64,000 bases of DNA from Thermodesulfobacteriota bacterium (GTDB lineage Bacteria; Desulfobacterota_D; UBA1144; Nemesobacterales; Nemesobacteraceae): the NCBI GenBank assembly GCA_965204795.1, contig OZ242012.1:355861-419860 (forward strand), written 5' to 3'. Position 1 is the first letter of the stretch. Each line of letters opens with the position of its first letter. Of this stretch, positions 29,171 through 46,021 are shown in pieces. The position numbers and the translations under genes are program-made. Under the pieces are notes generated by a model that did not search any database, was not told the origin of the DNA, and saw nothing but the letters and a program-made list of their open reading frames with translations.

Positions 29171-29242
29171 CTTCCTTTCTCCTCCTTCCTGTCTTCTCGC
29201 GCCCCGCGCGGGACGTTTCCGCTCACGGGGTCAGGTCTTGCG

Positions 29243-30007
29243 TCACTCGAACGTCCCGTCCTCCGCCTCCCCCGCGTCGGGCCTTTTCTTCGCAAACGCC
29301 CAGGCTATCAATATTCCCAGTTCGTAGAAAATGAAAAGGGGAACCAGCATGAACATCATGGACACGGCGTCGGTTGTGGGGGTGATGAAGGCAGCCAGCA
29401 CGGAGCAGAGAAGCACGGCGTACCTTCTCTGCCGGGCGAGAAATCCCGACGTAACCAGCCCCAGCCTCGCGAGTATGAATATCACCAGCGGAAACTCGAA
29501 CACGAGCCCGAACCCTAGCATGAGGGCCGTCAGGAACGAAAACGCCTCCCGCACGCTGGGAAGGGCCTGCACGTACTGCGTGGTGTACTCCCCCAGCAGG
29601 AAGCGAAGTCCCTGGGGAGCGGCGACCAGGTAGCAGAACGCCGCCCCGGCTAGAAAAAACAGCGTCCCGAAGACCACCAGCGGCACCACCACCCTGCGCT
29701 CCTTTCTGTACAGAGCGGGGGAGACGAACTGCCACGCGTTGTAGAGAACGAACGGAAAGGAAAGGCAGAACGACGCGAAAAGCGACACCTTGAGGTAGAC
29801 CAGGAACCCTTCGGCCGGGCGGGTGAATATGAGCGAGCTTCCCTCGGGCAGGCTCCTTATCACCGGTCCCATCAGCAGGTCGAATATCCGCCCGGAGAAA
29901 AGGTAGCAGGGCACGAAAAACGCCGCCACGGGCAGAAGCGAGTATATGATCCTTTTTCGAAGCTCCTCGGCGTGCTCGAGAAACCTCATTCCCGTTTCCT
30001 CTTTCAT
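29243..30007 (-). CDS. tatC: Twin-arginine translocase subunit TatC
   Basis: FLEHAEELRKRI, QFVSPALYRKE, FGLVFEFP and AAFITPTTDAVSM. Confidence 0.95.
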   Translation of the reverse strand: MKEETGMRFLEHAEELRKRIIYSLLPVAAFFVPCYLFSGRIFDLLMGPVIRSLPEGSSLIFTRPAEGFLVYLKVSLFASFCLSFPFVLYNAWQFVSPALYRKERRVVVPLVVFGTLFFLAGAAFCYLVAAPQGLRFLLGEYTTQYVQALPSVREAFSFLTALMLGFGLVFEFPLVIFILARLGLVTSGFLARQRRYAVLLCSVLAAFITPTTDAVSMMFMLVPLFIFYELGILIAWAFAKKRPDAGEAEDGTFE

Positions 30008-30093
30008 TACGGCAGGTTAGATTAACCCAAATCGCCGTCTTTAACAATCCGCCCGCCCGGGACCCCCGCCCCCGCCCCGCGGGGCGGGAGCGA

Positions 30094-30122
30094 TTGACAT
30101 TGCGCCCCTATTGACCTATTAT
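30094..30122 (+). promoter_or_regulatory. Sigma70-type promoter of serA-hisZ-purA
   Basis: TTGACA (30094-30099), 17 nt spacer, TATTAT (30117-30122). GGAGG RBS at 30151. Confidence 0.7.
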
Positions 30123-30161
30123 CTTATCCCGTTTGAATTCCGCACCCGCCGGAGGAATCTC

Positions 30162-31752
30162 TTGAAAATACTGGTGACCGACGGACTCGCCAAGCAGGGT
30201 CTCGAGCTTCTCGTGTCCGCCGAGGGAATCGAGGTGGACGAACGAAAGGGCGTCTCCCCCGAGGAGCTTCTCGAAATAATAGGCGGCTACGAGGGACTGA
30301 TCGTGAGAAGCGCGACGAAGGTCACGGCCAAGGTCATAGAGGCCGCGGGGGGGAGTCTCCGCGTGATAGGCCGCGCGGGCATAGGAATCGACAACATAGA
30401 CGTGGAGGCCGCGACGAAAAACGGCGTGGCGGTCATGAACACCCCGGAGTCTAACTCCGTCACCACCGCCGAGCACACCATAACCCTGCTGCTCTCGCTC
30501 GCCAGGAGGGTTCCCCAGGCCCACGCGTCGGTGAGGGCCGGAAAGTGGGAGAGGGGCAGGTACAAGGGAGTCGAGGTCTTCGGAAAGACCATAGGGCTCG
30601 TCGGCCTCGGGAACATAGGAAAGCTCGTGGCCGAGAGGGCCAGGGGACTTCGGATGAAGGCCGTGGCGTACGACCCGTATCTCAGCCGCGATGCGGCGAA
30701 GAAGCTCGGAATAGAGCTCGTTTCCCTCGACGAGCTTTTCTCGCGCTCCGACGTCGTGACCGTGCACACTCCTCTCAATTCCGAGACCGAAAACCTCATA
30801 AACGCCGAATCCTTCGGGAAGATGAAGGAAGGGGTGATAGTGATAAACTGCGCCCGCGGGGGAATAGTGAACGAGGCCGACATGGCCGAGGCCGTCAGAA
30901 GCGGAAAGGTCGGGGGCGCGGCGTTCGACGTGTACACCACCGAGCCCGTGTCTTCGGAAAACCCGCTCGTGTCTCTCGAGGACAACGTGGTGCTCACCCC
31001 GCATCTTGGAGCCTCCACCGAGGAGGCCCAGGTGAAGGTCGGAACGACGATGGCCCAGCAGATAATAGACTTCGCCAGGGACGGCGTCGTGAGAAACGCC
31101 GTCAACATGCCGTCTCTCACCATGGAGCGCCTCGCGGTGATGAAGCCCTATCTTTCCATCTGCGAGAAGGTGGGAAGCCTGCACGGACAGCTCATAAAGG
31201 GCGCGGCGCGGAGAATGGAGATAATCTACGAGGGCGAGGCGGCGGAGATGGAGACGGGGCACATGACCGTCGCGGTGCTCAAGGGCTTCCTCGGCCAGAT
31301 AATGTCGGCGGCCGTCACGTACGTGAACGCCCCCTCGGTGGCCGAGGAGAGAAAGATAAAGGTCGTGGAGTCCGTGTCCCGGGCCCCGGGCCGCTACAGG
31401 AACCTCGTCACCGTGAAGGTTAAGACCCGCGGGGAGACCAGCAGCGTCTCTGGAAGCGTGCTCGGGGAGCGCGACGGGCGGATAGTGAACGTCGACGGGG
31501 TGGACATAGACGTGGTTCCCCAGGGGTTTCTGCTCGTTAGCCACAACTACGACCGCCCGGGATTCATCGGCTCCATGTGCTCGGTTCTCGGAGAAAACGG
31601 CATCAACATAGGGCGCATGCATCTGGGAAGGGAGTCGGTCGGGGGCCAGGCCATAGTGTTCACCAACGTCGACACCGAGGTGGGCCAGGAGGTGATGGAC
31701 GAGATATCGTCCATACCGCACATCATTTCCGTCGCGCAGGTGAGCTTTCCCG

Positions 31753-31760
<8 letters not shown>
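30162..31760 (+). CDS. serA: D-3-phosphoglycerate dehydrogenase
   Basis: IGRAGIGIDNID, GLGNIG, INCARGG, TPHLGAST and a C-terminal ACT domain. TTG start at 30162. Confidence 0.95.
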
Positions 31761-34304
<2,544 letters not shown>

Positions 34305-34355
34305 TCCGGTTCCGTTTCCCCGTCCCCGAAGCGTCCGCGGGACCGCGAAGAGCCT

Positions 34356-34757
34356 TTACTTGACCTCTTTCAGCCTGTCGTCTTCGTCGTAGACCACGAT
34401 GAATCCGTAGCAGCCGTCCTTCATCTTCGCCGCCTTCTTAACGCGGGAGCCGACGACTTTCCACATTCCCCCGGTCGCGATAGACGCTCCGCGTCCGAAC
34501 ACCTTTCCGAGAAGTCCCCTGTGCTTGCACTCCTCGTAGATGTCTATTTCCTCGTAGGAGTACTTCGGCTCCCCGAGCTCCGCCTTGACCGTCTCTCTTG
34601 ACGCTCCTTCTTCGAGAATCTCAAGGTTGGGCTCCTTCTTTCCCCTGACGGCTTCGACCGTACCTTCCTTGACCGTGCTGACCGCGGCGCAGCCGAAAAG
34701 CGCCGCGCACGCGGCGAGACCCGCTATCAGAACGGGCATGCGGGTGAAAAGTCTCAT
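34356..34757 (-). CDS. Hypothetical lipoprotein (possible SmpA/BamE-like segment)
   Basis: AGGAGG RBS, ATG 34757, lipobox LFGC, and GASRETVKAELGEP. Confidence 0.6.
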   Translation of the reverse strand: MRLFTRMPVLIAGLAACAALFGCAAVSTVKEGTVEAVRGKKEPNLEILEEGASRETVKAELGEPKYSYEEIDIYEECKHRGLLGKVFGRGASIATGGMWKVVGSRVKKAAKMKDGCYGFIVVYDEDDRLKEVK

Positions 34758-34890
34758 GTCTGCTGACCTCCTTGACGACCGGGATTTCGACATTATACCG
34801 GAAATCCGCCGTCCGCGGCGCAAGTTCCATGTCCGTCGCCCCTCGCCGTGCGGGCCCGGGCCTTCTCCCGACTCCGGCCGCTGCGCCCCC

Positions 34891-35283
34891 TCAGCGGTCG
34901 GACTTCAGCACCTTTATCTTTTTCGCCGCGAGGGTGGGGTCGAACCTGCTTTCGGACGATACGTAGTTGTTGTCGAAAAGCCCCTCGGCCTCGATTATGT
35001 CCCCTTCGGCGAAAGACGCTTCCCGGCTCCATGTCACCTTTATGTAGTTTCCGTCGCTGTCGGCGAGCTTAAAGGCGGTCGGTTCTCCCGGCTCCTCGGA
35101 AAGCGCCATCTCCCAGACCTTTCCCTTCACGCGCACTTCCTGCATGGAGTAGACGGAAGGGTTCAGCAGCAGAACCGCTATTGACTTGTCGACCGACACT
35201 ATCGAGGTCGACGGGTCCTGCCATTTTCCGCAGGAAGGGGCCAGAAACGCGAGCGCCAGCATAAATGTCGCGATTGTCTTCAT
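34891..35283 (-). CDS. Hypothetical lipoprotein, probable OB fold
   Basis: Lipobox APSC, then VRVKGKV...GDIIEAEG beta-strand pattern. Confidence 0.6.
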   Translation of the reverse strand: MKTIATFMLALAFLAPSCGKWQDPSTSIVSVDKSIAVLLLNPSVYSMQEVRVKGKVWEMALSEEPGEPTAFKLADSDGNYIKVTWSREASFAEGDIIEAEGLFDNNYVSSESRFDPTLAAKKIKVLKSDR

Positions 35284-35317
35284 TGTTTTCTCTCCGGTCG
35301 TTTCGGACCGCCGCGGG

Positions 35318-36301
35318 TCACGTGGCGCGGTCCTTAATTTTTTCGTAAGCGTCTATTATGTTCATCACTAGCGGATGCCTTATGACGTCCGCCCTGGAGA
35401 AGCCGACGAACTCTATTCCCTTTATTCCCCCGAGAATGTCCGCCGCCTCCACGAGTCCCGAGTGCTGCTCCCGGGAGAGGTCTATCTGGGTCACGTCTCC
35501 GGTGACCACGGCCTTCGAGCCGAATCCGAGCCTCGTGAGGAACATCTTCATCTGCGTGGCCGTCGTGTTCTGCGCCTCGTCCAGGATTATGAAGGCGTCG
35601 TTCAGCGTCCTTCCCCTCATGTAGGCCAGGGGCACGATCTCGATCACGTTTCTGTCGAGGAGGCTGTTGGCGCGCTCGAAGTCCATCATGTCGTAGAGGG
35701 CGTCGAAAAGGGGCCGGAGGTAGGGGTTCACCTTCTCCTGGAGGTCTCCGGGAAGAAACCCTAGCTTCTCTCCCGCCTCCACGGCGGGTCTTGTGAGCAC
35801 TATCCTGTTCACCTTCTTGCTCGAGAACGCCGAGACCGCCATCGCCATGGCCAGGTAGGTCTTTCCCGTGCCCGCGGGTCCTATTCCGAACACCATGTCG
35901 TTTCTTCTTATGGCGTCTATGTAGAGCTTCTGGTTTATGGTCTTGGGGCTTATTATCTTCTTTCGCACGGAGATGCAGACGGTGTCGAGGAAAATCTCCT
36001 CGAGCGAGGCGTTTTTCTCCTCCAGGACCCTCTTGGCTATCTTTATGTCCGAGGGGTGGAGAACGTAGCCCTTTTCTATGAGGGAGTACATCTGCCCCAT
36101 GAGCGCGCCTGCCCCGGCGGTCTTTTTCTCCTCTCCCCGGAGGGTGATCTTGTTTCCCCTGGTGTGGATGCTTACGTCGAACTCGCTTTCTATTTCCTTG
36201 AGGTTCGAGTTCAGTTCCCCGTAGAGAACCTTCACGGCCTCTATGTTTTCGAGTTCTAGCTCCCTGACTCCGTCCATGGACGCTTCGGCCGTTTCTCTCA
36301 A
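35318..36301 (-). CDS. phoH: PhoH family ATPase
   Basis: GPAGTGKTYLA, LTRPAVEAGEKLGFLPGD, YMRGRTL and DEAQNTT. Start could be 36277. Confidence 0.93.
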   Translation of the reverse strand: MRETAEASMDGVRELELENIEAVKVLYGELNSNLKEIESEFDVSIHTRGNKITLRGEEKKTAGAGALMGQMYSLIEKGYVLHPSDIKIAKRVLEEKNASLEEIFLDTVCISVRKKIISPKTINQKLYIDAIRRNDMVFGIGPAGTGKTYLAMAMAVSAFSSKKVNRIVLTRPAVEAGEKLGFLPGDLQEKVNPYLRPLFDALYDMMDFERANSLLDRNVIEIVPLAYMRGRTLNDAFIILDEAQNTTATQMKMFLTRLGFGSKAVVTGDVTQIDLSREQHSGLVEAADILGGIKGIEFVGFSRADVIRHPLVMNIIDAYEKIKDRAT

Positions 36302-36591
36302 GGCGCGGCCCTTTCCCCTCCGGAGATTCGGTCGCGGGTTTCGCTTCTTCGCGACGGGCGGATGTAGGTTCGACGGGTCCTGGATGTGCGGAAAGTTCTT
36401 ATGTCGTTTTCACCTGCTCGCGGTCGTGGGGAAATTATAACCAAAATTTTTCCGCGAAAAAATTCTCCGCGGAGAAACGGGCGGTCCGCGCCGCGGCTTT
36501 CGTTTTCAGGGCAAGAGGCATTGAAACTCCGACGCGCGGGAGGAGTGTCCGTGGTTTTTCCCGCCGTCGACAGTCTCTGGAATTGGGTGCT

Positions 36592-36620
36592 TTGACAATT
36601 CAACTTGTGCGCAATATTCT
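36592..36620 (+). promoter_or_regulatory. Sigma70-type promoter upstream of putative small RNA copy 1
   Basis: TTGACA (36592-36597), 17 nt spacer, TATTCT (36615-36620). Confidence 0.7.
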
Positions 36621-36626
36621 TTACGC

Positions 36627-36688
36627 GACTTCCCTGCCACGTGTAGGAGGAGCATTCGAGGTCGTCCAGCGGGCGACCTCCGCTTTTT
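36627..36688 (+). ncRNA. Putative small RNA, copy 1 (unknown family)
   Basis: Starts 6 nt after the -10 box: GACTTCCCTGCCACGTGTAGGAGGAGCATTC, then a terminator hairpin and T5. Near-identical to 41098-41161. Confidence 0.55.
36658..36688 (+). terminator. Intrinsic terminator
   Basis: Stem gaggtcgtcc/gggcgacctc (one G-U pair) followed by cgcTTTTT. Confidence 0.7.
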
Positions 36689-36733
36689 AAAGTCTTTTCG
36701 TTTCTCCCTCGCGAGACATAAGGAACGGACACA

Positions 36734-37000
36734 ATGTCGGAAAAGATAGAGATAGAATTCCGCGAACTCAAAGGCAGATTACCGGAAATACTTGACCGGG
36801 TGCGGGCGGGGGAAGCTTTTACGGTCACCGAGCGCGGAGAACCTGTCGCGGATATTCTGCCCTGCGGGTCGGTATCCGGACAAAAAACCTTGTCCAGACA
36901 GAAAATTGCGGAGGCTATTGCGGACATCAAGGCTGGGATGTCCGAAACGGCCGTCTCCGACGACCGTCTGAAAGAATACAAGGAGTGCGGCCGCAAGTGA
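36734..37000 (+). CDS. Phd/YefM family type II antitoxin (no cognate toxin adjacent)
   Basis: FRELKGRLPEILDRVRAGEAFTVTERGEPVADILP is the Phd/YefM N-terminal pattern. AAGGA RBS upstream. Confidence 0.85.
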   Translation: MSEKIEIEFRELKGRLPEILDRVRAGEAFTVTERGEPVADILPCGSVSGQKTLSRQKIAEAIADIKAGMSETAVSDDRLKEYKECGRK

Positions 37001-37076
37001 CGGTTCCTGAATAATTCCCGGACCTCGGGCTTGGAGTTCTTCCGACCGTCTGTCTGCATGAGATACTTTGAAGGGA

Positions 37077-39011
37077 CTACCGGGTCAGGCCCATTTCCAC
37101 CAGGAATCTGGATGCTTCCTTCGGATAGCCCGAATACCGGCCGGCCCTGCTCAGGATGAGGCGTTCCTTCGCGCGCGTGATGGCGACAAAGCAGTTTCTC
37201 CGCTCCTCTTCCATTTCGGGACTGTCGTCGCCTTTTTTAAGACTTTGGTAAGAAGGCATGATTTCTTCCGCGAGGCCTATGACGTAGACGATGTCGAACT
37301 GCAGTCCTTTGGCGGCGTGGATCGTCATCAGGGTGACCGATTCGGGGTCGGGGGAAGGCTCCTTGGAACGCAGCTGAAGCTGCTGGAGGAACTGGTTCAG
37401 CGGAATTTTCCTGCCGTGAAGTTTTCCGATGTTATGGGTGATTTCCCGCCATGCCGCCATATCTTCCGAAAGGTCGCCGTCGCGACCCGCCCTGCCGTTT
37501 GACAAAAGCGAGTCGAACTTGCCGACAATATCGTTGATCGGTTTTCTCGCGGACGACGAGTTGAGGGAGAGACTCCTGACGGATTCAAGCAGTAAGCTAC
37601 GCGGGAAAGCGCCGTTTCCGCTGTTTGCGTTCTCGGCTTCTCCAATCCATGCGTCAAGATAGCTTTCGCCGCTTATTTCCGCCCGGGAGACGACATGATC
37701 GACATCGACCTTAATCCCGGCGACCCGGTTGTAAGCTTCAACCAGAACTCCCACGTTGTGCCGGTCAAGAGGCCTCAAAGCCTGCGTTATGCAGGCTACC
37801 AGCCATCTGAATTCCGGAGAAAGGAAATCTTCCCTGCGTTGCGAGATGACCGCAGGAACTTTTTGTCTCAAAAGCGCTTCCCTCATGTTTTCGAGCAACG
37901 CGCGGGTTCGCGCTAAAACGGTTATGCAGCTCCATTGACGCGACCCGCAAGCGGCTATCTCTCCAGCTATTTCGTCGGCTTCCTCCTCTTCGGAGACGAA
38001 CTCGCGGACCTGTAAGCGTTCTTCTTTAGGAAACTTGAAATCGGTCTTGCCCGTAGCGAGCGGTTTTTTCTTTTCCGTGCGCTCGACGTTGTAGGCGACG
38101 AGGCGGTTTGCCGCTTCCACTATGATGCCCGGACAGCGATAGTTGGTCGGAAGCTGTATCAGTTCCGGAGAAAAATCCCTGCGCAGGCGCTGAATCTGGC
38201 GGAAACTGGCTCCGTTCCATCGATAGATGATTTGATCGTCGTCGGCGACGGCGAAAACATTTTGGAATTCTTCTCCAGCCATGGTGCGAACGAGCTGATA
38301 CTGTGCTTGGTTGGTGTCCTGAAATTCGTCTATAAGCCAGTAGGGATAGGATACTTGGTAGTGTTCCGCTATGACGGGAAACGTCTTGACGAGCTCATGC
38401 GCTTCGAATATAAGAGAGTTAAAATCTAGGGCGTTTAGCGTTCGAAGCTCTTCTTCGTACATGCGATAGATTTCGGCGGCACGTCTTGGATCAGGCAGAT
38501 TCTTAAATCTTTCTTCAATGTCGTCCGGTTTGATCAGCCGCGCTTTCATTCGGTCGACAAATTTGAGATAACCAGAGTAATCAATGTTTGGAAGCCCGTA
38601 TGAGGAAGACTCTTTTGCCAGAGCGTCTTCAAGCACCGCAAGGCGGTCGTTTTCTCGGGAGTAAATTGTAAAATCGGGTTTGATGCCTATGTGCACTCCA
38701 TGCTGACGGAGAACCTGCGCGCAGAAACTGTGGAAGGTCCCGATAGTGGCGCGTTCTTCAAGCCCGGGAACGAAAGCTGCGACGCGTTCTTTCATTTCAT
38801 CCGCGGCCTTGTTGGTGAAGGTAAGCGCGAGCACCCTGAACTTCTTGCCGCGCGAAGAATCGAGCAGACGCGCGATGCGGCAGGTGAGAACCTGGGTTTT
38901 TCCCGAACCGGGCCCGGCGAGCACAAGCATCGAACCGTCATTCCAGTCCACCGCTCTGCGCTGTATTTTCGAGAGGTCTCCCAGAGCTATATCCAAAGAA
39001 CGGGCGTTCAT
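37077..39011 (-). CDS. UvrD/REP helicase, Gabija GajB-like, pair 1
   Basis: AGPGSGKT, TFTNKAA, IDEFQDTN, PTNYRC, TIHAAKGLQF and EEERRNCFVAITRA. ATGA-coupled to the OLD nuclease. Confidence 0.85.
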   Translation of the reverse strand: MNARSLDIALGDLSKIQRRAVDWNDGSMLVLAGPGSGKTQVLTCRIARLLDSSRGKKFRVLALTFTNKAADEMKERVAAFVPGLEERATIGTFHSFCAQVLRQHGVHIGIKPDFTIYSRENDRLAVLEDALAKESSSYGLPNIDYSGYLKFVDRMKARLIKPDDIEERFKNLPDPRRAAEIYRMYEEELRTLNALDFNSLIFEAHELVKTFPVIAEHYQVSYPYWLIDEFQDTNQAQYQLVRTMAGEEFQNVFAVADDDQIIYRWNGASFRQIQRLRRDFSPELIQLPTNYRCPGIIVEAANRLVAYNVERTEKKKPLATGKTDFKFPKEERLQVREFVSEEEEADEIAGEIAACGSRQWSCITVLARTRALLENMREALLRQKVPAVISQRREDFLSPEFRWLVACITQALRPLDRHNVGVLVEAYNRVAGIKVDVDHVVSRAEISGESYLDAWIGEAENANSGNGAFPRSLLLESVRSLSLNSSSARKPINDIVGKFDSLLSNGRAGRDGDLSEDMAAWREITHNIGKLHGRKIPLNQFLQQLQLRSKEPSPDPESVTLMTIHAAKGLQFDIVYVIGLAEEIMPSYQSLKKGDDSPEMEEERRNCFVAITRAKERLILSRAGRYSGYPKEASRFLVEMGLTR

Positions 39012-40924
39012 TCAAGGCTCCCCAGATCTTTTATCGCGTTGCGGAAAGCTTCGGGCATGTAGGATGCAAGCGCCGAATTACCATGAAGCATCAGGGCCAG
39101 TTCCGCCGCATATTCCGTTTTGTGTTTCTTGAGAAGACTTTTAAGGTTTTTCGAATCTATCTCTTCGGCGTCTTTGTGTCCCGTGTTCAGGAGGGCGTCG
39201 CGAAGTTTGGATTCCAGCCCGTCGGACAGAAGCTGCTGTTCGAGATTTCCGGCTGAATGTGTGCGGCACCGCTCTTTTGCGAGGTCGGCATCGCCGATTC
39301 GTGATTTTATTTCCCGAATTCTCTTTTTGCCTGCGCAATCGCCGTCAAGCACCACGAGCCATGGAATTCCGAGAGCCTGGGCCAGCGCTGTGAAAAGCTT
39401 GGGGTTTCCGTTGTTCATCGAATCGATAAGGGATACTCCATGCTCGTCTAGGTCGTATCCAATCTCCCGAGCCAAGGCACTGACCAGCAGGTATTCCGCC
39501 TGACCTTCTACGATAAGCCACCTGTGCGCAAAAAATATCTCGCCTCGAATCCGGCGGGCAAACGTCTCAAGTTTTCTCAGTTCGTCATTATTTATAAAGA
39601 GCGAAGAACGGTCCAGCAGTTCCCGCAGTCTTTCGTGTATTTTGGTCTTTTCAGGATGTTTGCTGTAGCAACGGAGCAACTTTTTGTAGAGATTCTTTTC
39701 GAGCTTGCCGTGAACCGTAAGCGTTTCCGCCACCCTTTCATATCTTAAAAACCCCTTGCCGTTGCTGACAACGGCGTCAATACCCTCGACGTGAGGAATG
39801 TCTTGTGCTGAGAAACTTTCCGGGAGCGACCTGACTTCGGTTCCACTGTCTGTGAGCCGGACTAGGCGAAGGTCTCGAAAGGAAACATGTTGGACGAAGT
39901 AGGGAGAATGAGTGGTGATGATTTTCTGACCGGGCAGGTTGTTAACATGAGCCCACAGCGTCCGTGCCGCGTGAGGATGCAGATGGGTCTCCGGTTCCTC
40001 AAGAGCTAGAACCGGAGCACTGTCGTCTTCGTAGAGTTCGGAGAGGAGATGCTCGACGAAAGCCTGAAAAAGAAAAATGACGGAAAGACTCTGCACCCCT
40101 TGGCCATGCCGCTGAAGCGGGAGCCATGGCCAGCTCCGTTCGTTCCGCATTATTATCTGTGCTTTCGACAGCAAATCCCAGGACTTGAGCGGAACGAGGC
40201 GAAGATCAACTTCACCGTCGCCGCTTCTCGCGGCGACCCGGGTCGCGCCGGAAAGCGTATCGGCGATTTTCTTCAATCGGGGATCGGCTTTAAGAAGCTT
40301 GCTGTTTAGCTTGTCGAGAGCGCTTTGCACCTGAGTCTCAAGCTCCGAAGGTATGTTCATCGCCTTGAGCAAGCGTCCCCAGAACTGAGAACGCGAAGAG
40401 AACTCGTCGTCCGCGTCACGCAGGGCTCCTAGGTAGAATACAGGAAGGTAGTGCCAGAAGCTCTCCAGATTGATCCGCCGCGCCGAGTCTCCCGTCAACG
40501 GTTCTCTCGCGGCGTTTAGAAACTGCCAGACGGGCTGAAAACTTTCATCTTCGGCGTTCCAGGCGCAGCTTACGCGCAGGACTATGGAGTTTTTGCCTGT
40601 AGCAGGGTCGGGCTGGTAAATGCCGGTAAGATCCTGCCGCAGTTCGGCGGACCACTCGCCTTTTTCCCGCTCTTCCGCATGAAGCTCAATGGAAACTCCT
40701 GGCGACTGTTTCGGGTCGCTTTCTTCGTTCTCGAGATGGATGTCATACTCGGTAAAGCCTGTTCCTCTCTGCCCCCATCTTCTGGTCAAAGCTATTCGTA
40801 CCGCATCGAGGATGGCGGTTTTTCCCGCGTTGTTCGGACCTATAAATACGGTTGTGTCCCCGAGTTCTATGTCAAGGACCTTCAGCGACCGGAAATTCTT
40901 TATGTGGAGACGAGTAATGCGCAT
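39008..40924 (-). CDS. OLD family ATP-dependent nuclease (ABC ATPase + TOPRIM), Gabija GajA-like, pair 1
   Basis: IKNFRS, GPNNAGKT, HGQGVQS, LEEPETHLHP, TTHSP, and TOPRIM EGQAE and LDGD. Confidence 0.88.
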   Translation of the reverse strand: MRITRLHIKNFRSLKVLDIELGDTTVFIGPNNAGKTAILDAVRIALTRRWGQRGTGFTEYDIHLENEESDPKQSPGVSIELHAEEREKGEWSAELRQDLTGIYQPDPATGKNSIVLRVSCAWNAEDESFQPVWQFLNAAREPLTGDSARRINLESFWHYLPVFYLGALRDADDEFSSRSQFWGRLLKAMNIPSELETQVQSALDKLNSKLLKADPRLKKIADTLSGATRVAARSGDGEVDLRLVPLKSWDLLSKAQIIMRNERSWPWLPLQRHGQGVQSLSVIFLFQAFVEHLLSELYEDDSAPVLALEEPETHLHPHAARTLWAHVNNLPGQKIITTHSPYFVQHVSFRDLRLVRLTDSGTEVRSLPESFSAQDIPHVEGIDAVVSNGKGFLRYERVAETLTVHGKLEKNLYKKLLRCYSKHPEKTKIHERLRELLDRSSLFINNDELRKLETFARRIRGEIFFAHRWLIVEGQAEYLLVSALAREIGYDLDEHGVSLIDSMNNGNPKLFTALAQALGIPWLVVLDGDCAGKKRIREIKSRIGDADLAKERCRTHSAGNLEQQLLSDGLESKLRDALLNTGHKDAEEIDSKNLKSLLKKHKTEYAAELALMLHGNSALASYMPEAFRNAIKDLGSLE

Positions 40925-41062
40925 CAGACATCACGACCCAGTACTTGCGCCTTCGGGCTCACGATCATAACGGTCGGGAAAAGTCCGGTTGACGAATCTG
41001 GCCCACCCGAAGTATAACACGAAGCCCCGTCAATTATAATATGGAACTCCCTAACAAAACGG

Positions 41063-41091
41063 TTGATATTTTAGTCCGTCAGTAATATATT
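41063..41091 (+). promoter_or_regulatory. Sigma70-type promoter upstream of putative small RNA copy 2
   Basis: TTGATA (41063-41068), 17 nt spacer, TATATT (41086-41091). Same geometry as copy 1. Confidence 0.6.
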
Positions 41092-41097
41092 TTAAAT

Positions 41098-41161
41098 GAC
41101 TCACCTGCCATGTGTAGGAGGAGCATTCGAGGTCGTCCCAGCGGGCGACCTCAGTTTTTTT
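41098..41161 (+). ncRNA. Putative small RNA, copy 2 (unknown family)
   Basis: Starts 6 nt after the -10 box: GACTCACCTGCCATGTGTAGGAGGAGCATTC, then a terminator hairpin and T7. Confidence 0.55.
41129..41161 (+). terminator. Intrinsic terminator
   Basis: Stem gaggtcgtcc/gggcgacctc, loop cagc, followed by agTTTTTTT. Confidence 0.72.
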
Positions 41162-41355
41162 GTCCCGTCTTTTCTCTGAAGTAATTCTCGCGCTCGCGGC
41201 GCAGTCTGGAAGTTCCTCGGTGGGACGGGTCTGTAACAGTAGGCGGTTTTCAGTAGCCGGTGATTCTTACGTTCCGCCAGCACCACGAGATATTCCTCGC
41301 GGTATCATAGCAGAGTGCTTATCTCGTCGCCGCGGGTTTTGGATAATCAATATCC

Positions 41356-42174
41356 TCATTCCGTTATGCGAAGCGGGTCGGGATGGACGAATTCGTATCC
41401 GAGCGTCTTCTTGAGCTTTTCGTTCGAGACTATCTTGTACCGAGGTTTCTCTCCGCCGCTTTCGAAAGCCGGAAGATCCACGCCGAGCCTGAGAGCCTCG
41501 CGGGAGTAGTACTCCCTTCTGGTCGGATGATGGTCGCAGACGGCGTTAAGCGTCGTGTTCCTCGCGTCGAGAGCGATTGTTCTGAGCGCCACCCCCACGC
41601 AGTCGTCGCGGTGTATGAGGTTGAGCGGACAGTCGGGGTCCATCACGAGCTTCTTTTTTCTTATCGAGTTTATCGGCGCCCTGTCGTAGCCCACCAGTCC
41701 CGCGAACCTGATCACGGTCGTATCCGTGGGCACGTGGTCGAAAAGAACTTTCTCCACGCGCAGAAGGGCTTTTCCCGAAGGCTTGTCGGGGTTGACCGCG
41801 TCTTGTTCCCTCACGACGCCGTTTGTGTTCGGATAGACGGAAGTCGAGCCGGCGAATACGACCCACTTGCCCCCGGGCTTCGGAATCGCTCCGAGAAGAC
41901 TCCTGACCTGCCTTTCGTAGTAGACCTCCACGTCGTCTCTTCTGGGAGGCGGGAAGTTGACGAAAAGTATGTCCGAGGAAAAAAATCGGCCGGTATCCTC
42001 TCCGCCCGTCTCGGGATCGAGGTTGACCAGATACGGTTCTATTCCCTTTCCCTCAAGCTCCGCGAGTTTTCCGGGGTCCCTCGAAGAACCCCTTACGAAA
42101 AATCCTTCCTCGAGAAGCCTGACCGCGAGCGGAAGCCCGAGCCACCCGCATCCCAGAACGCTTACCGACCTCAT
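41356..42174 (-). CDS. NAD-dependent epimerase/SDR (YeeZ-like)
   Basis: VSVLGCGWLGLPLA Rossmann motif, STSVY, RFAGLVG and NLIHRDDC. Start at ATG 42174. Confidence 0.88.
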   Translation of the reverse strand: MRSVSVLGCGWLGLPLAVRLLEEGFFVRGSSRDPGKLAELEGKGIEPYLVNLDPETGGEDTGRFFSSDILFVNFPPPRRDDVEVYYERQVRSLLGAIPKPGGKWVVFAGSTSVYPNTNGVVREQDAVNPDKPSGKALLRVEKVLFDHVPTDTTVIRFAGLVGYDRAPINSIRKKKLVMDPDCPLNLIHRDDCVGVALRTIALDARNTTLNAVCDHHPTRREYYSREALRLGVDLPAFESGGEKPRYKIVSNEKLKKTLGYEFVHPDPLRITE

Positions 42175-42347
42175 GCGTCCCGCTCCGTCTCCCGCTCGGA
42201 TATCCTCTCCATGACTTCCTCCCGCTCGGCGTCGGAGAACTCCTCCCATCCCGCTATTTCGTCCGACGTGCGAAGGCAGCCGACGCAGAGCCCCGTGTCT
42301 TCGTCGAGAATGCACACGCCGTTGCAGGGAGAGGACGTTTTTCCCAT
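42171..42347 (-). CDS. DUF1289 family small Cys-rich protein (58 aa, below the ORF-track cutoff)
   Basis: Manual translation MGKTSSPCNGVCILDEDTGLCVGCLRTSDEIAGW... ATGA overlap with the next gene. Confidence 0.85.
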   Translation of the reverse strand: MGKTSSPCNGVCILDEDTGLCVGCLRTSDEIAGWEEFSDAEREEVMERISERETERDA

Positions 42348-42354
42348 CGGCCGG

Positions 42355-43242
42355 CTACCCCAGAAATATCCTCGTTATCTCGAGATATTTCTCCCCGGTC
42401 TTCTCCACTATGTCGTCTGGAAGGTCGGGCGGGGGAGGCTGCCTGTCCCAGCCCGAGGACCTGAGATAGTCTCTCACGAACTGCTTGTCGAAGCTTTCCT
42501 GCGCGCGCCCCGGACTGTAACTTCCGGCGGGCCAGAACCGGGAGGAGTCGGGGGTAAGAGCCTCGTCTATCAGCAGAAGCTCTCCCGTGTCCTTCGCGAG
42601 TCCGAACTCGAACTTCGTGTCCGCTATTATCACTCCCTTTTTCTCCGCGACGGCAACCGCGGCCCGGTAGAGCGCGACGCTCGTCTCTCTTGCCCTGCGC
42701 GCCAGGTCGCCCCCGACCGTTTCCACCGCCTTTTCGAAAGACACGTTCTCGTCGTGGCTTCCCCGCTCGGCCTTGGTGGCCGGGGTGAATATCGGCTCCG
42801 CGAGCTTCTGGGATTCCAAAAGCCCCCCTGGAAGCTCTATCCCGCAGACCGAGCCCGTCTCCAGGTACTCCTCCCATCCCGAGCCGCTCAGGTAGCCCCT
42901 CACCACGCACTCCACGGGAAGAGGTTCCGTTTTTCTCACCAGCATGGACCTTCCGGCGAGTTTCTCCGAATGGGCCCGGAACCGTTTCGGAAAATCCGCC
43001 GGGTCCGTGGATATCATGTGGTTGGGAACGATGTCCGCGGTCTCGCGGAACCAGAATTCCGAAAGGCGGGTCAGCACCACTCCCTTTCCGGGAACGCCCT
43101 GGGGAAGCACCACGTCGAAGGCCGAGATGCGGTCGGTGGCCACTATCAGGAGCGTGTCGCCCAGGTCGTAGATCTCCCGCACCTTGCCGCTTTTCGGCCG
43201 GTCGGATTCAATGAAGTCGGTGGTGAGTATGGTCTTTCGGAT
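42355..43242 (-). CDS. purC: SAICAR synthase (start codon uncertain)
   Basis: GKVREIY, ATDRISAFD, PVECVVRGYLSGSG, IFTPATKA, IADTKFEFG, DEALTPDSSRFW and DKQFVRDYL. The frame is open upstream of GTG 43182 but has no ATG/GTG/TTG, so the 43242 start is tentative. Confidence 0.93.
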   Translation of the reverse strand: MRKTILTTDFIESDRPKSGKVREIYDLGDTLLIVATDRISAFDVVLPQGVPGKGVVLTRLSEFWFRETADIVPNHMISTDPADFPKRFRAHSEKLAGRSMLVRKTEPLPVECVVRGYLSGSGWEEYLETGSVCGIELPGGLLESQKLAEPIFTPATKAERGSHDENVSFEKAVETVGGDLARRARETSVALYRAAVAVAEKKGVIIADTKFEFGLAKDTGELLLIDEALTPDSSRFWPAGSYSPGRAQESFDKQFVRDYLRSSGWDRQPPPPDLPDDIVEKTGEKYLEITRIFLG

Positions 43243-43458
43243 CGCGACGCTGTCCCTGTCCGGGTTTTTCCTCTCTTCGTCCCGAAGGAATCCGCAAGCT
43301 ACCCGAAACCGCGGATGTTCTCAAGCGCTTACGGGCGTCCCGCGCGGGATGTTCCCCCGGCCCGGTTTCTCGGCTTTTTCCGTCGGAACCGGCGTTTTGC
43401 CGGAGGCTTCCGACCCGCTTGACAACCGAACGCCCTTAAAAGAAAATACAGGGTTTTT

Positions 43459-43533
43459 GAGCACGTAGCTCAGGGGCAGAGCACTTGCTTGACGTGCAAG
43501 GGGTCGCAGGTTCAATTCCTGCCGTGCTCACCA
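43459..43533 (+). tRNA. tRNA-Val (anticodon GAC)
   Basis: Acceptor stem gagcacg/cgtgctc, anticodon arm cttgc-tt-GAC-gt-gcaag, GGTTCAATTCC T arm, CCA end. Confidence 0.95.
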
Positions 43534-43557
43534 TGCTTTCTGAAGGACGAAGGGATA

Positions 43558-45489
43558 TTGGACGTAAAAGTGAGTTTTGAAGGCAGAAGCGCCGAGCTTC
43601 CGTCCGGCTCTACGGTCGGAGAGGCGCTCGACGCCCTGGGCGCGAAGAAAAACGCCGTCGGCGCACTTGTTGACGGAAAGCCGGTCGACTTCCACCACCG
43701 CGTGGAGGGCGACTGCGAGATGGTCGCGGTCAAAAAGAACACCGAGGAAGGTCTGGGACTCCTTCGCCACACCGCCGCCCACGTCCTCGCCGAAGCCGTG
43801 CAGTCCCTTTTTCCCGAGGCGAAGGTCACGATAGGCCCCGTCATAGAAAACGGCTTCTACTACGACTTCGACTTTCCGAGGGGATTCACCCCCGAGGACC
43901 TCGAAAGCATCGAGGCCAGGATGCTCGAGATAACGAAGAAAAACAGCCCCGTCACGAGAAGCGCCGTGTCGAGGGAAGACGCCGTCGCGATGTTCTCCGA
44001 GATGGGGGAGAGCTACAAGGTGGAGATAATAAACGACCTTCCCGAGGACGAGGAGATAACCCTCTACGACCAGGCCGGCTGGTACGACCTGTGCCGGGGA
44101 CCGCACGTTCCCGAAACGGGACTGGTCAGGGCGTTTAAGCTCACAAGCTCCGCGGGGGCCTACTGGAGGGGAAACGAGAACAACCCCATGCTCCAGAGAA
44201 TCTACGGGACGGCCTTCTGGAACCCGAAGGATCTTCGCGCGCACCTCAAAAGCCTCGAGGAGGCGAAAAAAAGGGACCACAGGAAGCTCGGGCGGGAGCT
44301 CGACCTTTTCAGCGTAAGCGAGGAAATAGGCCCGGGGCTGGTTCTCTGGCACCCCAGGGGGGCGACCGTGCGGGGGATAATCGAGGATTTCTGGAAAAAG
44401 GAGCACCTCTCGCGGGGCTACGAGATGCTCTACACCCCCCACATGGCGAAGCTCGACCTGTGGCGCTCGAGCGGCCACGTGGACTTCTACAGGGAGAACA
44501 TGTTCTCCTCCATGGAGGTCGAGACCTCCGACTACCAGATAAAGCCCATGAACTGTCCCTTCCACATACTGGTGTACAAGACCAGGACCAGAAGCTACAG
44601 GGACCTGCCGCTTCGGTGGGCGGAGATAGGCACCGTCTACAGGTACGAGCGCTCGGGGGTGCTCCACGGCCTCATGAGGGTCAGGGGGTTTTCCCAGGAC
44701 GACGCGCACATATTCTGCCGCCCGGACCAGATACGGGAGGAGGTCTCCGGGGTGCTCGCCCTCACCATGGACTTTCTCCGCACCTTCGGCTTCGACGACT
44801 ACGAGATATTCCTCTCCACCCGTCCCGCGAAGTTCGTGGGAAGCGAGGAGAACTGGGAGAGGTCCGTGGAGGCCATAGAGGAGGCGCTTCGCGAAACGGG
44901 TTTCGACTACGACGTGGACGAGGGCGGCGGGGCGTTCTACGGTCCCAAGATAGACCTCAAGATAAAGGACGTTCTCGGCAGGGCTTGGCAGTGCTCCACA
45001 ATTCAAGTAGATTTCAACCTGCCCGAGCGGTTCGGAATGGAGTTTGCGGGCGAGGACAACGCCAGGCACGTCCCGATAATGATACACCGGGCGATATTCG
45101 GTTCCCTCGAGCGTTTTTTCGGTATACTCATAGAGCACTACGGGGGAGCGTTTCCCCTGTGGCTCAGTCCCGAGCAGGTGAGGGTGGCGTCGGTCGGCCG
45201 GGAGCACGCCGGTTACTGCGAGAGCGTCTGCGAGACGCTTCGAAGCGGCGGGATAAGGGCGCGGACCGACACGAGAAACGAGAAGCTCGGATACAAGGTG
45301 AGAGAAGCGCAGACCATGAAGATTCCCTACCTGCTTGTGGCGGGAGACAGGGAGGCGGAGTCGGGGACGGTGGCCCCGAGGCGTTACGGGCAGGAGTCCA
45401 TGCCCGCGCTTTCGGTCGGGGATTTCCTCGAGACCGTCTCGGCCGAGAACGACCCTTACCGTTGGACGGAGGTAAAGCGGCATAGCTAG
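43558..45489 (+). CDS. thrS: Threonine--tRNA ligase
   Basis: RHTAAHVLAEA, DLCRGPHVP, RDHRKLG, KPMNCPFH, RYERSGVLHGLMRVRGFSQDDAH and FYGPKID. TTG start at 43558. Confidence 0.97.
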   Translation: MDVKVSFEGRSAELPSGSTVGEALDALGAKKNAVGALVDGKPVDFHHRVEGDCEMVAVKKNTEEGLGLLRHTAAHVLAEAVQSLFPEAKVTIGPVIENGFYYDFDFPRGFTPEDLESIEARMLEITKKNSPVTRSAVSREDAVAMFSEMGESYKVEIINDLPEDEEITLYDQAGWYDLCRGPHVPETGLVRAFKLTSSAGAYWRGNENNPMLQRIYGTAFWNPKDLRAHLKSLEEAKKRDHRKLGRELDLFSVSEEIGPGLVLWHPRGATVRGIIEDFWKKEHLSRGYEMLYTPHMAKLDLWRSSGHVDFYRENMFSSMEVETSDYQIKPMNCPFHILVYKTRTRSYRDLPLRWAEIGTVYRYERSGVLHGLMRVRGFSQDDAHIFCRPDQIREEVSGVLALTMDFLRTFGFDDYEIFLSTRPAKFVGSEENWERSVEAIEEALRETGFDYDVDEGGGAFYGPKIDLKIKDVLGRAWQCSTIQVDFNLPERFGMEFAGEDNARHVPIMIHRAIFGSLERFFGILIEHYGGAFPLWLSPEQVRVASVGREHAGYCESVCETLRSGGIRARTDTRNEKLGYKVREAQTMKIPYLLVAGDREAESGTVAPRRYGQESMPALSVGDFLETVSAENDPYRWTEVKRHS

Positions 45490-46021
45490 AAGGAGAAGCA
45501 GTCCCAAGCCGCGCGAGCCCGAGGTCCGCGTCAACAGGAGAATCAGGGCCAGGGAGGTGAGGGTGATAGACACCGAGGGGGAGCAGCTTGGAATCATGAG
45601 CATCGACGACGCGCTGCGAAGCGCCGAGGAGAAGGGGGTAGACCTGGTCGAGGTCTCCTCCGGCGCCGCTCCTCCCGTCTGCAGGCTCATGGACTACGGC
45701 AAGTACAAGTACGAGCTCAAGAAGCAGAAAAGCGCGAGGAAGCACAAGGACCGCTCGATAAAGGAGATAAAGTTCCGTCCCAACATCGGCGCCCACGACC
45801 TCAACGTCAAGGTCGGCCGCATGAGGGACTTTCTCGAGTCCGGTCACAAGACCAGGCTCAGGATATTTTTCAGGGGAAGGGAGATAGTGCACCCCGAGCT
45901 CGGCCGCAGCCTGGCGGCGAACGTCTGCGAGGAACTCGCCGACGTGGCGTCGGTGGACATGGAGCCGAAGATAGAGGGGAAGAACCTGATAATGGTTCTG
46001 GCCCCGACCAGAAAACAGTGA
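45482..46021 (+). CDS. infC: Translation initiation factor IF-3 (probable ATA start)
   Basis: GGAGGT 8 nt upstream of an in-frame ATA at 45482. RVNRRIRAREVRVID, PPVCRLMDYGKYKY and KEIKFRPNIGAHD. Confidence 0.95.
   Translation: MARRRSSPKPREPEVRVNRRIRAREVRVIDTEGEQLGIMSIDDALRSAEEKGVDLVEVSSGAAPPVCRLMDYGKYKYELKKQKSARKHKDRSIKEIKFRPNIGAHDLNVKVGRMRDFLESGHKTRLRIFFRGREIVHPELGRSLAANVCEELADVASVDMEPKIEGKNLIMVLAPTRKQ

What the first reader, a model, noticed from the sequence alone, without database searches (positions are those of the whole stretch)
36592..41161. Two near-identical promoter-sRNA-terminator units bracket the Phd + Gabija-like cassette
Seen: direct repeats at 36627-36688 and 41098-41161 whose roughly 50 nt cores (CCTGCCA[C/T]GTGTAGGAGGAGCATTCGAGGTCGTCC[C]AGCGGGCGACCTC) differ by one substitution and one loop indel. 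Each has a -35/17 nt/-10 promoter (TTGACA..TATTCT; TTGATA..TATATT) exactly 6 nt before a GACT start, and the promoter spacers have diverged completely while the boxes and geometry are kept. Each ends in a hairpin plus T tract. A 5' hairpin (CCUGC/GUAGG) can partly sequester an AGGAGGAG purine run, and no start codon follows this SD-like run. Inference: selection is maintaining a 62-64 nt non-coding RNA, possibly an RNA antitoxin, a protein sponge or a regulator of the defence cassette. The repeats could also let the 4.4 kb cassette excise by recombination. It matches no RNA family I recognise.
Basis: partly seen in the sequence, partly recalled or inferred. Interest (0 to 1): 0.72.

Follow-up and report, generated by a model that had tools for sequence, protein, structure and literature searches.

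The report
Small RNA partner of DUF3800 module
The two repeats are real copies of a ~65-nt small RNA gene. In dozens of other bacteria this gene sits tail-to-tail with a two-gene candidate anti-phage module (an RNase H-like DUF3800 protein plus a small partner), so it is an unannotated third part of that module and not a part of the Gabija cassette lying between the copies here.

Summary
Window 36627-36691 and 41098-41163 (+) hold two copies of one promoter-sRNA-terminator unit, and these are the only two copies in the 64 kb.

The RNA matches no Rfam 15 family, but it is not specific to this locus. The same RNA was found in more than 60 loci from several phyla. It has a TTGACA-17-nt promoter, a nearly invariant 5' hairpin domain and a covarying terminator hairpin. 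Almost everywhere it is convergent with, and ends at, the stop codon of the second gene of PADLOC candidate system PDC-M04. That system has a DUF3800 protein, modelled here as type-2 RNase H-like, and a ~160-aa partner. All ten modules that were found by protein alone also carry the RNA.

In the window the module has decayed. A broken M04B pseudogene lies next to copy 2, and M04A is absent.

Two relatives show that the repeats are not insertion scars. L054 has both RNA copies and the Phd gene but no Gabija. L018 has Gabija but lacks copy 1 and Phd.

Best reading: the RNA is an antitoxin-like or regulatory partner of the DUF3800 module, a new member of the function-unknown "DUF3800-associated RNA motifs". 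A link to Gabija is not supported.

The parts
36592..36620 (+). Promoter of RNA copy 1 (TTGACA, 17 nt, TATTCT; 6 nt to the G start)
   Evidence: 10/12 match. The same geometry is found upstream of about 43 of 48 family members.
36627..36691 (+). RNA copy 1. Helix 1 lies at about 36627-36653. The terminator hairpin is 36658-36680, followed by a T tract. This is an 'a-type' sequence with two changes in the otherwise invariant 5' strand (CUUCCC instead of CUCACC).
   Evidence: (66.3 bits)
36734..37000 (+). Phd/YefM-family antitoxin-like gene (88 aa), directly downstream of RNA copy 1. No toxin gene lies beside it.
   Evidence: Pfam PF02604, E 1.4e-6, just under the cut-off. NCBIfam TIGR01552 is above its cut-off. 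The same RNA + Phd unit occurs in L054, with in-frame indels.
37077..39011 (-). GajB (UvrD-type helicase) of a Gabija system. It is not part of the RNA's own module.
   Evidence: PADLOC GajB, 794 bits; Pfam UvrD
39008..40924 (-). GajA (ABC ATPase + OLD/TOPRIM nuclease) of the Gabija system
   Evidence: PADLOC GajA, 843 bits; Pfam AAA_15 and OLD-like_TOPRIM
37001..41052 (.). Stretch that is absent from the 92-95% identical relative L054, i.e. the Gabija insertion between the Phd stop codon and the promoter of RNA copy 2
   Evidence: 145 nt in L054 against 4053 nt in the window; lower GC
41063..41091 (+). Promoter of RNA copy 2 (TTGATA, 17 nt, TATATT)
   Evidence: Near-identical promoters with TTGACA occur in L018 and L054.
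41098..41163 (+). RNA copy 2, the canonical 'a-type'. The terminator hairpin is 41129-41152, followed by T7.
   Evidence: (76.2 bits)
41154..41336 (-). Pseudogene remnant of PDC-M04B (about residues 103-163), convergent with and overlapping the 3' end of RNA copy 2. It carries a 5' truncation, an in-frame stop at the W113 equivalent and a 1-nt insertion. M04A (DUF3800) is absent.
   Evidence: tblastn; alignment to L054 and three-frame translation
35318..36301 (-). PhoH-like gene, the conserved left flank of the variable locus
   Evidence: synteny with L018 and L054

Best explanation
Identity (well supported). Each repeat is a gene for a ~65-nt structured small RNA. This RNA is the so-far unannotated third component of the candidate anti-phage module PDC-M04. 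M04A is a DUF3800 protein with a type-2 RNase H-like fold. M04B is a ~160-aa partner. The RNA has its own strong sigma-70 promoter and runs convergently into the 3' end of M04B, so that its terminator lies on or next to the M04B stop codon. In this window the protein genes have decayed and two orphan RNA copies remain. One precedes a Phd-family gene and the other lies next to the M04B pseudogene. A Gabija cassette was inserted between them independently.

Mechanism (inferred, not shown). The RNA acts like an antitoxin or regulatory partner that keeps the M04A/M04B effector pair inactive. Most likely its invariant 5' hairpin domain is bound by the proteins, as in a type III toxin-antitoxin system or a retron. 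The convergent overlap with the operon mRNA could add an antisense layer. Loss of the RNA during phage infection would then release the effector.
For: Shown:
- The same RNA was found by two DNA patterns in 53 loci from Alphaproteobacteria, Vicinamibacterales, Thermodesulfobacteriota, metagenomes and viral contigs.
- In nearly all of these loci M04B ends 35-60 nt after the conserved core, and M04A follows. The two proteins hit PADLOC PDC-M04B and PDC-M04A at E 5e-54 and 4e-86, and Pfam DUF3800.
- Reverse test: ten M04 modules picked by protein only all carry the RNA at the M04B stop. Eight are close and two are distant members of the 1220-cluster family.
- Promoter geometry is conserved while the spacer sequence varies.
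- The structure is supported: 98.5% of cells are paired, 11 pairs show compensatory change, and 0 of 500 shuffles reach this. The conserved G.U pairs fit only the + strand RNA.
- The AlphaFold2 model of M04A matches RNase H2/HII/HIII at E 2e-5, probability 1.0. The literature reports the same and shows DUF3800 as the effector of type VII retrons (PMC7736814).

Pointing to an antitoxin-like role:
- The RNA and its promoter are intact beside independently truncated M04B genes in the window, L007, L015, L029, L031, L041 and L052.
- No intact module lacks the RNA.
- RNA-only copies occur inside phage-like contigs.
- The 5' domain is far more conserved than a purely cis-antisense role would need.
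Against: - There are no expression data for any copy.
- PDC-M04 is an untested 'guilt-by-embedding' candidate, so neither defence nor toxicity of M04A/M04B has been shown.
- Part of the invariance of the 5' domain follows from the exact-match patterns used to find the loci.
- RNA retention next to truncated genes could reflect where deletions start rather than selection.
- The RelE/HigB-like hint for M04B is weak (Foldseek E 0.05, TM 0.3-0.4).
- An activating role (guide, scaffold or sensor) fits the co-occurrence equally well.
- In this window there is no intact M04 protein for the RNA to act on, so its present role here is unknown.
Confidence: 0.55

Rival explanations
1. Positive cofactor. 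The RNA is needed for the module to work, as a guide, scaffold or sensor for the RNase H-like DUF3800 protein, in the way that a retron ncRNA/msDNA or an Argonaute guide works. It would not be an inhibitor.
For: The RNA co-occurs with every module examined. DUF3800 has an RNase H fold, and more weakly resembles PIWI domains. DUF3800 is the effector of type VII retrons and recurs next to unrelated ncRNAs. The 5' domain is invariant, as expected for a protein-recognised handle.
Against: A guide with an invariant sequence across phyla would have only one target. RNA copies persisting after loss of the proteins, and RNA-only copies in phages, are easier to explain for an inhibitor.
Confidence: 0.2
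2. Pure cis-antisense regulator of type I toxin-antitoxin style. The RNA acts only by pairing with the overlapping 3' end or 3' UTR of the M04A-M04B mRNA, or by transcriptional interference, to lower its expression.
For: The arrangement is convergent, with the RNA terminator lying on or within about 10 nt of the M04B stop codon in all loci. The hairpin has no T tract on the minus strand, so operon transcripts should read into the RNA gene.
Against: Cis-encoded complementarity is automatic. It does not explain the near-invariant sequence, the conserved G.U pairs or the compensatory changes of the 5' domain. It also does not explain RNA-only copies in phages and next to Phd.
Confidence: 0.15
3. 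The RNA serves the genes it brackets here, either as a regulator or antitoxin of Gabija or as a leader/attenuator of the Phd gene.
For: Copy 1 lies 45 nt upstream of Phd on the same strand, and the same RNA + Phd unit exists in L054. Copy 2 is divergent from gajA here, and an RNA copy lies about 140 nt from gajA in L018.
Against: More than 60 other loci have the RNA with no Gabija and no Phd. L054 has both RNA copies without Gabija. In almost all loci the gene downstream of the RNA is on the opposite strand.
Confidence: 0.05
4. The repeats are recombination scars or sites (attL/attR-like) or REP-like dispersed elements that mobilise the 4.4-kb cassette. They would not be genes.
For: They are direct repeats flanking a lower-GC cassette. 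Both window copies share a derived base pair, which suggests gene conversion between them.
Against: There are only two copies in 64 kb. Each has its own conserved promoter. The relatives show that the Gabija insertion and the RNA duplication are separate events. No integrase is present. The G.U-containing, covarying structure is strand-specific.
Confidence: 0.03

Closest known systems
DUF3800-associated RNA motifs (DUF3800-I to -XI; Weinberg et al. 2017, PMC5737381)
   Same: These are structured non-coding RNAs found next to DUF3800 genes, on either strand. Several have their own intrinsic terminator. They occur in several phyla and their function is unknown.
   Different: No Rfam 15 model, including DUF3800-I (RF02969) and DUF3800-IX (RF02968), matches this RNA even at E<=10. 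The published motifs are said not to resemble each other. Whether this RNA equals a motif of that paper that is not in Rfam could not be checked, because the supplement is not held.
PADLOC candidate system PDC-M04 (Payne et al., bioRxiv 10.1101/2024.01.29.577857)
   Same: The two genes next to the RNA are PDC-M04A and PDC-M04B by HMM. They are often embedded in type I restriction-modification loci, as that paper describes.
   Different: PDC-M04 is defined as two protein genes and is untested. No RNA component is mentioned. In the window only a pseudogene of M04B remains.
Type III toxin-antitoxin systems (ToxIN, CptIN, TenpIN); from general knowledge
   Same: An RNA antitoxin is encoded beside a nuclease-type toxin, the system works in abortive infection, and phages can escape by carrying antitoxin-like RNA.
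   Different: Type III antitoxins are tandem repeats upstream of the toxin on the same strand and are processed by the toxin. Here there is a single unit with its own promoter, convergent with the genes. Toxicity and binding have not been shown.
Type I toxin-antitoxin pairs with 3' overlap (txpA/RatA, bsrG/SR4, par of pAD1); from general knowledge
   Same: A small RNA is transcribed convergently and overlaps the 3' end of the toxin mRNA.
   Different: Type I toxins are small hydrophobic peptides. Here the partners are 239-aa and about 160-aa soluble proteins, and the RNA's conserved domain lies outside the overlap.
Type VII retrons (reverse transcriptase + ncRNA + DUF3800 effector; Mestre et al. 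2020, PMC7736814)
   Same: A DUF3800/RNase H2-like effector is combined with a non-coding nucleic-acid component in a three-part defence system.
   Different: There is no reverse transcriptase gene in the module. The RNA is about 65 nt and has no msr/msd architecture.

Membership tests
PDC-M04 module (as extended here: M04A + M04B + RNA) | DUF3800 protein (PDC-M04A) encoded in the locus | tested here: not met
   No M04A similarity anywhere in the window (tblastn). It is present in the relatives L054 (cut by the contig end) and L055-L069.
PDC-M04 module (as extended here: M04A + M04B + RNA) | PDC-M04B gene immediately downstream of M04A, ending at the RNA terminator | tested here: inconclusive
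   Only a pseudogene is left (about residues 103-163, with a stop and a frameshift) at 41154-41336(-), in the canonical position relative to copy 2. Nothing of the kind lies beside copy 1.
PDC-M04 module (as extended here: M04A + M04B + RNA) | Convergent ~65-nt RNA with a TTGACA-17-nt promoter, a 5' hairpin domain and a terminator hairpin | tested here: met
   Both copies score 76 and 66 bits with model R1. Promoters and terminators are in place.
DUF3800-associated RNA motifs (Weinberg 2017) | Conserved RNA structure supported by covariation | tested here: met
   Alignment of 50 sequences: 11 pairs with compensatory change, 0/500 shuffles reach this, and slid controls are far lower. Caveat: the alignment was fitted to the model.
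DUF3800-associated RNA motifs (Weinberg 2017) | Consistent genomic association with DUF3800-domain genes | tested here: met
   This holds for the family, not for the decayed locus in the window.
DUF3800-associated RNA motifs (Weinberg 2017) | Match to one of the published motif models | tested here: not met
   No Rfam 15 hit at E<=10 on either copy or on relatives. Published motifs absent from Rfam could not be compared.
Type III toxin-antitoxin | Tandem-repeat RNA antitoxin upstream of the toxin gene and co-transcribed with it | tested here: not met
   The unit is single, has its own promoter and is convergent. The two window copies are 4.4 kb apart.
Type III toxin-antitoxin | The RNA binds and neutralises the toxin protein | not testable with these tools
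   This needs co-expression and binding assays.
Type I toxin-antitoxin | Small hydrophobic toxin peptide whose mRNA is bound by the antisense RNA | tested here: not met
   The partners are 239-aa and about 160-aa proteins modelled as soluble folds. An overlap of the transcripts is predicted from the gene positions only.
Gabija system | GajA + GajB gene pair | tested here: met
   PADLOC scores of 843 and 794 bits. The pair is complete without any RNA, and the RNA occurs elsewhere without Gabija.

The most novel reading that the evidence does not exclude
The RNA is the labile antitoxin or sensor of a three-part abortive-infection system made of the small RNA, a type-2 RNase H-like DUF3800 nuclease and a RelE/HigB-like partner. 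The system has spread by horizontal transfer across phyla. Phages carry promoter-less or stand-alone copies of the RNA as decoys to disarm it. Orphan copies such as the two in this window would protect the cell against incoming modules. If so, this would give the first function for the enigmatic DUF3800-associated RNAs.
Probability: 0.25. Interest if true: 0.8.

Novelty: new member of a known kind. Interest (0 to 1): 0.6.

Why it matters
DUF3800 genes are common in defence islands, retrons and CRISPR-associated loci. Since 2017 they have been known to be accompanied by unrelated structured RNAs whose role nobody has explained.

This finding supplies a compact, very widespread three-part unit with clear transcription signals: a 65-nt RNA, a 239-aa RNase H-like protein and a 160-aa partner. 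All ten modules that were found by protein alone carry the RNA.

That makes the open question directly testable by cloning the unit with and without the RNA. It also shows that PADLOC's PDC-M04 is annotated incompletely, because its RNA gene is missed.

For this genome, it corrects the reading of the locus. The Gabija cassette is a later insertion into a decaying PDC-M04 locus and does not have its own RNA.

Tried and rejected
1. Rfam at gathering and at E<=10, on both copies and on nine related loci, gave only tRNAs and chance hits.
2. Dispersed repeat: rejected, since there are two copies in 64 kb.
3. Coding peptide: the ATG in the loop of copy 2 is ACG, AAG or another triplet in other members, so this is not an ORF.
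4. SD or CsrA-type purine motif: the AGGAGG run becomes AGGAUG, AGGAAG, AGAAGG or UAGAAG in diverged members.
5. Trans pairing of the 5' domain with the region upstream of M04A: significant in only some loci (the site lies in the 3' end of hsdS), with mean z -1.2, so it is not a general feature.
6. attL/attR origin: rejected by comparison with L018 and L054.
7. PLSDB plasmids and INPHARED phages gave no match to the RNA in near or distant mode, so no annotated record was available.
8. M04B function: there is no Pfam, NCBIfam or PDB sequence hit. Foldseek gave only a weak HigB/RelE-like hint and one uncharacterised viral homologue.
9. The literature search found no paper on PDC-M04 and no functional follow-up of the DUF3800 RNAs.
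Full report
**1.

Window 36592-36693 and 41063-41167 (+) each contain four elements:
- a near-consensus sigma-70 promoter (TTGACA/17/TATTCT and TTGATA/17/TATATT);
- a G start 6 nt after the -10 box;
- a ~35-nt conserved 5' part;
- a 10-bp GC-rich hairpin followed by a T tract.

The core occurs exactly twice in the 64 kb, with none expected by chance. In a scan of 36300-41500 these are the two best promoter matches and the two best terminator matches. Both RNAs fold as a 5' hairpin plus a terminator, with z = -2.9 and -3.5. Rfam 15 gives nothing at either copy, even at E<=10.

**2. Surroundings.**

From left to right the locus reads:
- PhoH (-, 35318-36301);
- RNA copy 1;
- a Phd-family antitoxin-like gene (+, 36734-37000);
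- GajB (-, 37077-39011) and GajA (-, 39008-40924), a complete Gabija pair by PADLOC (794 and 843 bits);
- RNA copy 2;
- an epimerase-like gene, purC, tRNA-Val and thrS.

GC falls from about 0.62 to 0.50-0.56 across 36250-41500.

**3. The RNA is widespread and belongs to another system.**

Exact-pattern scans with parts of the core returned 20 genome loci, 5 viral contigs and 28 metagenome contigs. The genome loci come from Alphaproteobacteria, Vicinamibacterales, an unclassified bacterium and one Thermodesulfobacteriota MAG. Every locus has the whole unit, not just the pattern:
- TTGAC(A/T) at a 17-nt spacing from a cATAtA-like -10 box, 6 nt before GUCUCA... (about 43 of 48 copies);
- the same 5' domain;
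- a hairpin whose sequence differs between lineages but stays paired.

In nearly all loci the RNA is convergent with two overlapping minus-strand genes. One encodes a ~239-aa protein beginning M..(F/Y)NVYCDES. The other encodes a ~160-aa protein whose stop codon lies on or just after the RNA hairpin. These proteins are Pfam DUF3800 / PADLOC PDC-M04A (E 4e-86) and PADLOC PDC-M04B (E 5e-54; no Pfam or NCBIfam family).

PDC systems are untested candidates proposed because they are embedded in restriction-modification, BREX or DISARM loci. No RNA is mentioned for them. Many of the loci here do sit inside type I restriction-modification operons.

**4. Reverse test.**

The loci above were found through the RNA. 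I therefore also picked M04 proteins from protein searches without regard to the RNA:
- four M04B proteins at 58-68% identity to the query;
- four M04A proteins;
- two distant M04B relatives from a family of 1220 clusters at 50% identity.

All ten independent modules have DUF3800 followed by M04B, and then a hit of the covariance model R1 on the opposite strand at the M04B stop (63-94 bits for the first eight; 49.5 and 25 bits for the two distant ones). The RNA is therefore a constant third component of the module.

**5. Structure.**

On 50 RNAs aligned to the model:
- 98.5% of cells form pairs;
- 11 of 22 pairs show compensatory changes;
- no shuffle out of 500 reaches the observed values;
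- sliding the partners by 1-3 columns drops pairing to about 40-58%.

Helix 1 is almost invariant in the close members. It shows C-G to U-A, G-C to A-U and G.U to A-U changes in diverged ones. The conserved G.U pairs would be A-C mismatches on the other strand, so the + strand transcript is the structured molecule.

It changes to AGGAUG, AGGAAG, AGAAGG or UAGAAG in other members, so its SD-likeness is incidental.

Caveats: the alignment was fitted to the model, and part of the 5' invariance follows from the search patterns.

**6. What happened in this window.**

Downstream of copy 2, on the minus strand (41154-41336), lies a remnant of M04B. It covers only about residues 103-163 and carries a TGG-to-stop change and a 1-nt insertion. 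M04A is absent from the window.

Two relatives clarify the history.

- L054 is a metagenome contig 94.8% identical to window 28387-36530. It reads PhoH | RNA (b-type) | Phd | RNA (a-type) | M04B | M04A, with no Gabija. Window 37001-41052 corresponds to 145 nt there.
- L018 is the Thermodesulfobacteriota MAG OZ251569.1, 86-90% identical. It reads PhoH | GajB GajA | RNA (b-type) + truncated M04B paralogue | RNA (a-type) + M04B. It has no copy 1 and no Phd.

Three conclusions follow. The duplication of the RNA predates the Gabija insertion and is independent of it. The Gabija cassette is a later insertion into a variable defence hotspot beside PhoH. The repeats are not attL/attR scars.

The RNA + Phd unit is only 69% identical between the window and L054, while the flanks are 92-95% identical. 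Even so, the Phd protein is conserved, with in-frame indels.

Window copy 1 resembles a-type RNAs (86-89%) rather than the b-type copy at the same position in L054 (71%). It also shares with copy 2 a derived U-A pair in the terminator stem. This suggests gene conversion between the two copies.

**7. The proteins.**

The AlphaFold2 model of M04A (pLDDT 80) matches type-2 RNases H: human RNase H2A, archaeal RNase HII and RNase HIII (E 2e-5 to 1e-3, probability 1.0, TM about 0.45-0.52). The invariant residues include the N-terminal D-E and a Q..D motif.

This agrees with published statements that DUF3800 is RNase H2-like. It is also reported as the effector of type VII retrons and as a partner of Cas12a variants.

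M04B (pLDDT 90) has no sequence relatives of known function. Its best structural match is the HigB1 toxin, at hint level only (E 0.05, TM 0.31-0.40).

**8. How it most likely works.**

The following points are shown:
- the module is three-part;
- the RNA has its own strong promoter;
- its 3' end overlaps or abuts the M04B stop codon, so the two transcripts must overlap;
- its 5' domain is conserved far beyond what cis-complementarity requires.

Three observations suggest an inhibitor:
- intact RNA genes persist beside independently truncated M04B genes with different breakpoints, in the window, L007, L015, L029/L037, L031, L041 and L052;
- no intact module lacks the RNA;
- RNA-only copies lie in phage-like contigs, next to a DNA ejection protein and other PHROG families, and some lack the usual promoter.

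This is the pattern expected for an antitoxin, which can outlive its toxin and which phages can copy as a decoy.

I therefore favour an antitoxin-like or regulatory RNA recognised by M04A/M04B, with antisense overlap as a possible second layer. Identity as the PDC-M04 RNA has a confidence of about 0.9. The inhibitory mechanism has about 0.4-0.5.

The rivals are a positive cofactor or guide role, a purely antisense role, a role for Gabija or Phd, and a recombination site. They are weighed in the Rival explanations section of this report.

**9. Relation to what is known.**

Weinberg et al. (2017) reported eleven mutually unrelated RNA motifs next to DUF3800 genes. Several have terminators, and the authors offered no functional hypothesis. 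The present RNA fits that class in every tested respect except that it matches none of the models in Rfam.

I could not compare it with motifs of that paper that may be missing from Rfam. No later paper on their function, or on PDC-M04, was found.

It is best filed as a new member of a known kind of element whose function is unknown.

**10. Verdict.**

The feature is real, under selection and unannotated. The functional link to Gabija is not supported. The two window copies are orphans of a decayed PDC-M04 locus.

Interest is moderate to high (0.6). The RNA makes the DUF3800-RNA problem experimentally tractable and shows that a PADLOC candidate system lacks its RNA gene.

Noticed in passing
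L021, L023, L025, L034 (viral and metagenome contigs): These are RNA-only copies with no M04A/M04B within reach, inside phage-like gene sets: a DNA ejection protein (phrog_26400), a terminase-like protein and other PHROG hits. L021, L023 and L025 lack the usual TTGACA promoter. They could be phage decoys of an RNA antitoxin.
   Followed up: partly
L012, L036, L048, L001, L009 and others: about 60 nt upstream of the M04A start: Where M04A follows hsdS (ATGA stop/start overlap), the RNA 5' domain is partly complementary to the hsdS 3' end (codons LLEALLHEAL). Values reach -41.9 kcal/mol and z = -4.4 in L012. Other loci show nothing, and the mean z is -1.2.
   Followed up: partly
window 36658-36680 and 41129-41152: Both window copies share a derived U-A pair in the terminator stem (GGGCGACCTC; relatives have GGGCGGCCTC). 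Copy 1 is a-type, although the copy at the same position in L054 is b-type. This points to gene conversion between the two copies.
   Followed up: partly
window 36300-41360; L018; L054: The interval next to PhoH is a variable defence hotspot in three related genomes. It holds different combinations of the RNA copies, Phd, Gabija and intact or truncated M04B.
   Followed up: yes
window 36734-37000 (+); L054 1504-1740: An orphan Phd/YefM-family antitoxin gene with no adjacent toxin follows an RNA copy in both genomes. M04B gives a weak HigB/RelE-like fold hint, and RelE-family toxins are what YefM-type antitoxins neutralise. A Phd-M04B link is possible but untested.
   Followed up: no
L018 6643-7006 (in the orientation with the RNA on +): A second, b-type RNA copy is followed by a truncated M04B paralogue, about 55% identical to the neighbouring full-length M04B. 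Tandem stacking of RNA + M04B units therefore occurs.
   Followed up: partly
L067 1742-1846; L069 114-218: Rfam reports a tRNA match (55 bits) with a 37-nt insert in the anticodon loop, directly upstream of the DUF3800 gene. ARAGORN does not call it. It is possibly a tRNA-like element or an interrupted tRNA.
   Followed up: no
window 41383-43422 (+) and 43528-45690 (-): These long ORFs (679 and 720 aa) have no Pfam hit and lie opposite real genes (purC and epimerase; thrS). They are high-GC shadow ORFs, not genes.
   Followed up: partly
BFVD entry A0A8S5VG57 (Siphoviridae sp. ctjbm8): This uncharacterised viral protein has the M04B fold (Foldseek E 7e-10, TM 0.78, 29% identity), so some phages or prophages carry the protein as well.
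   Followed up: no
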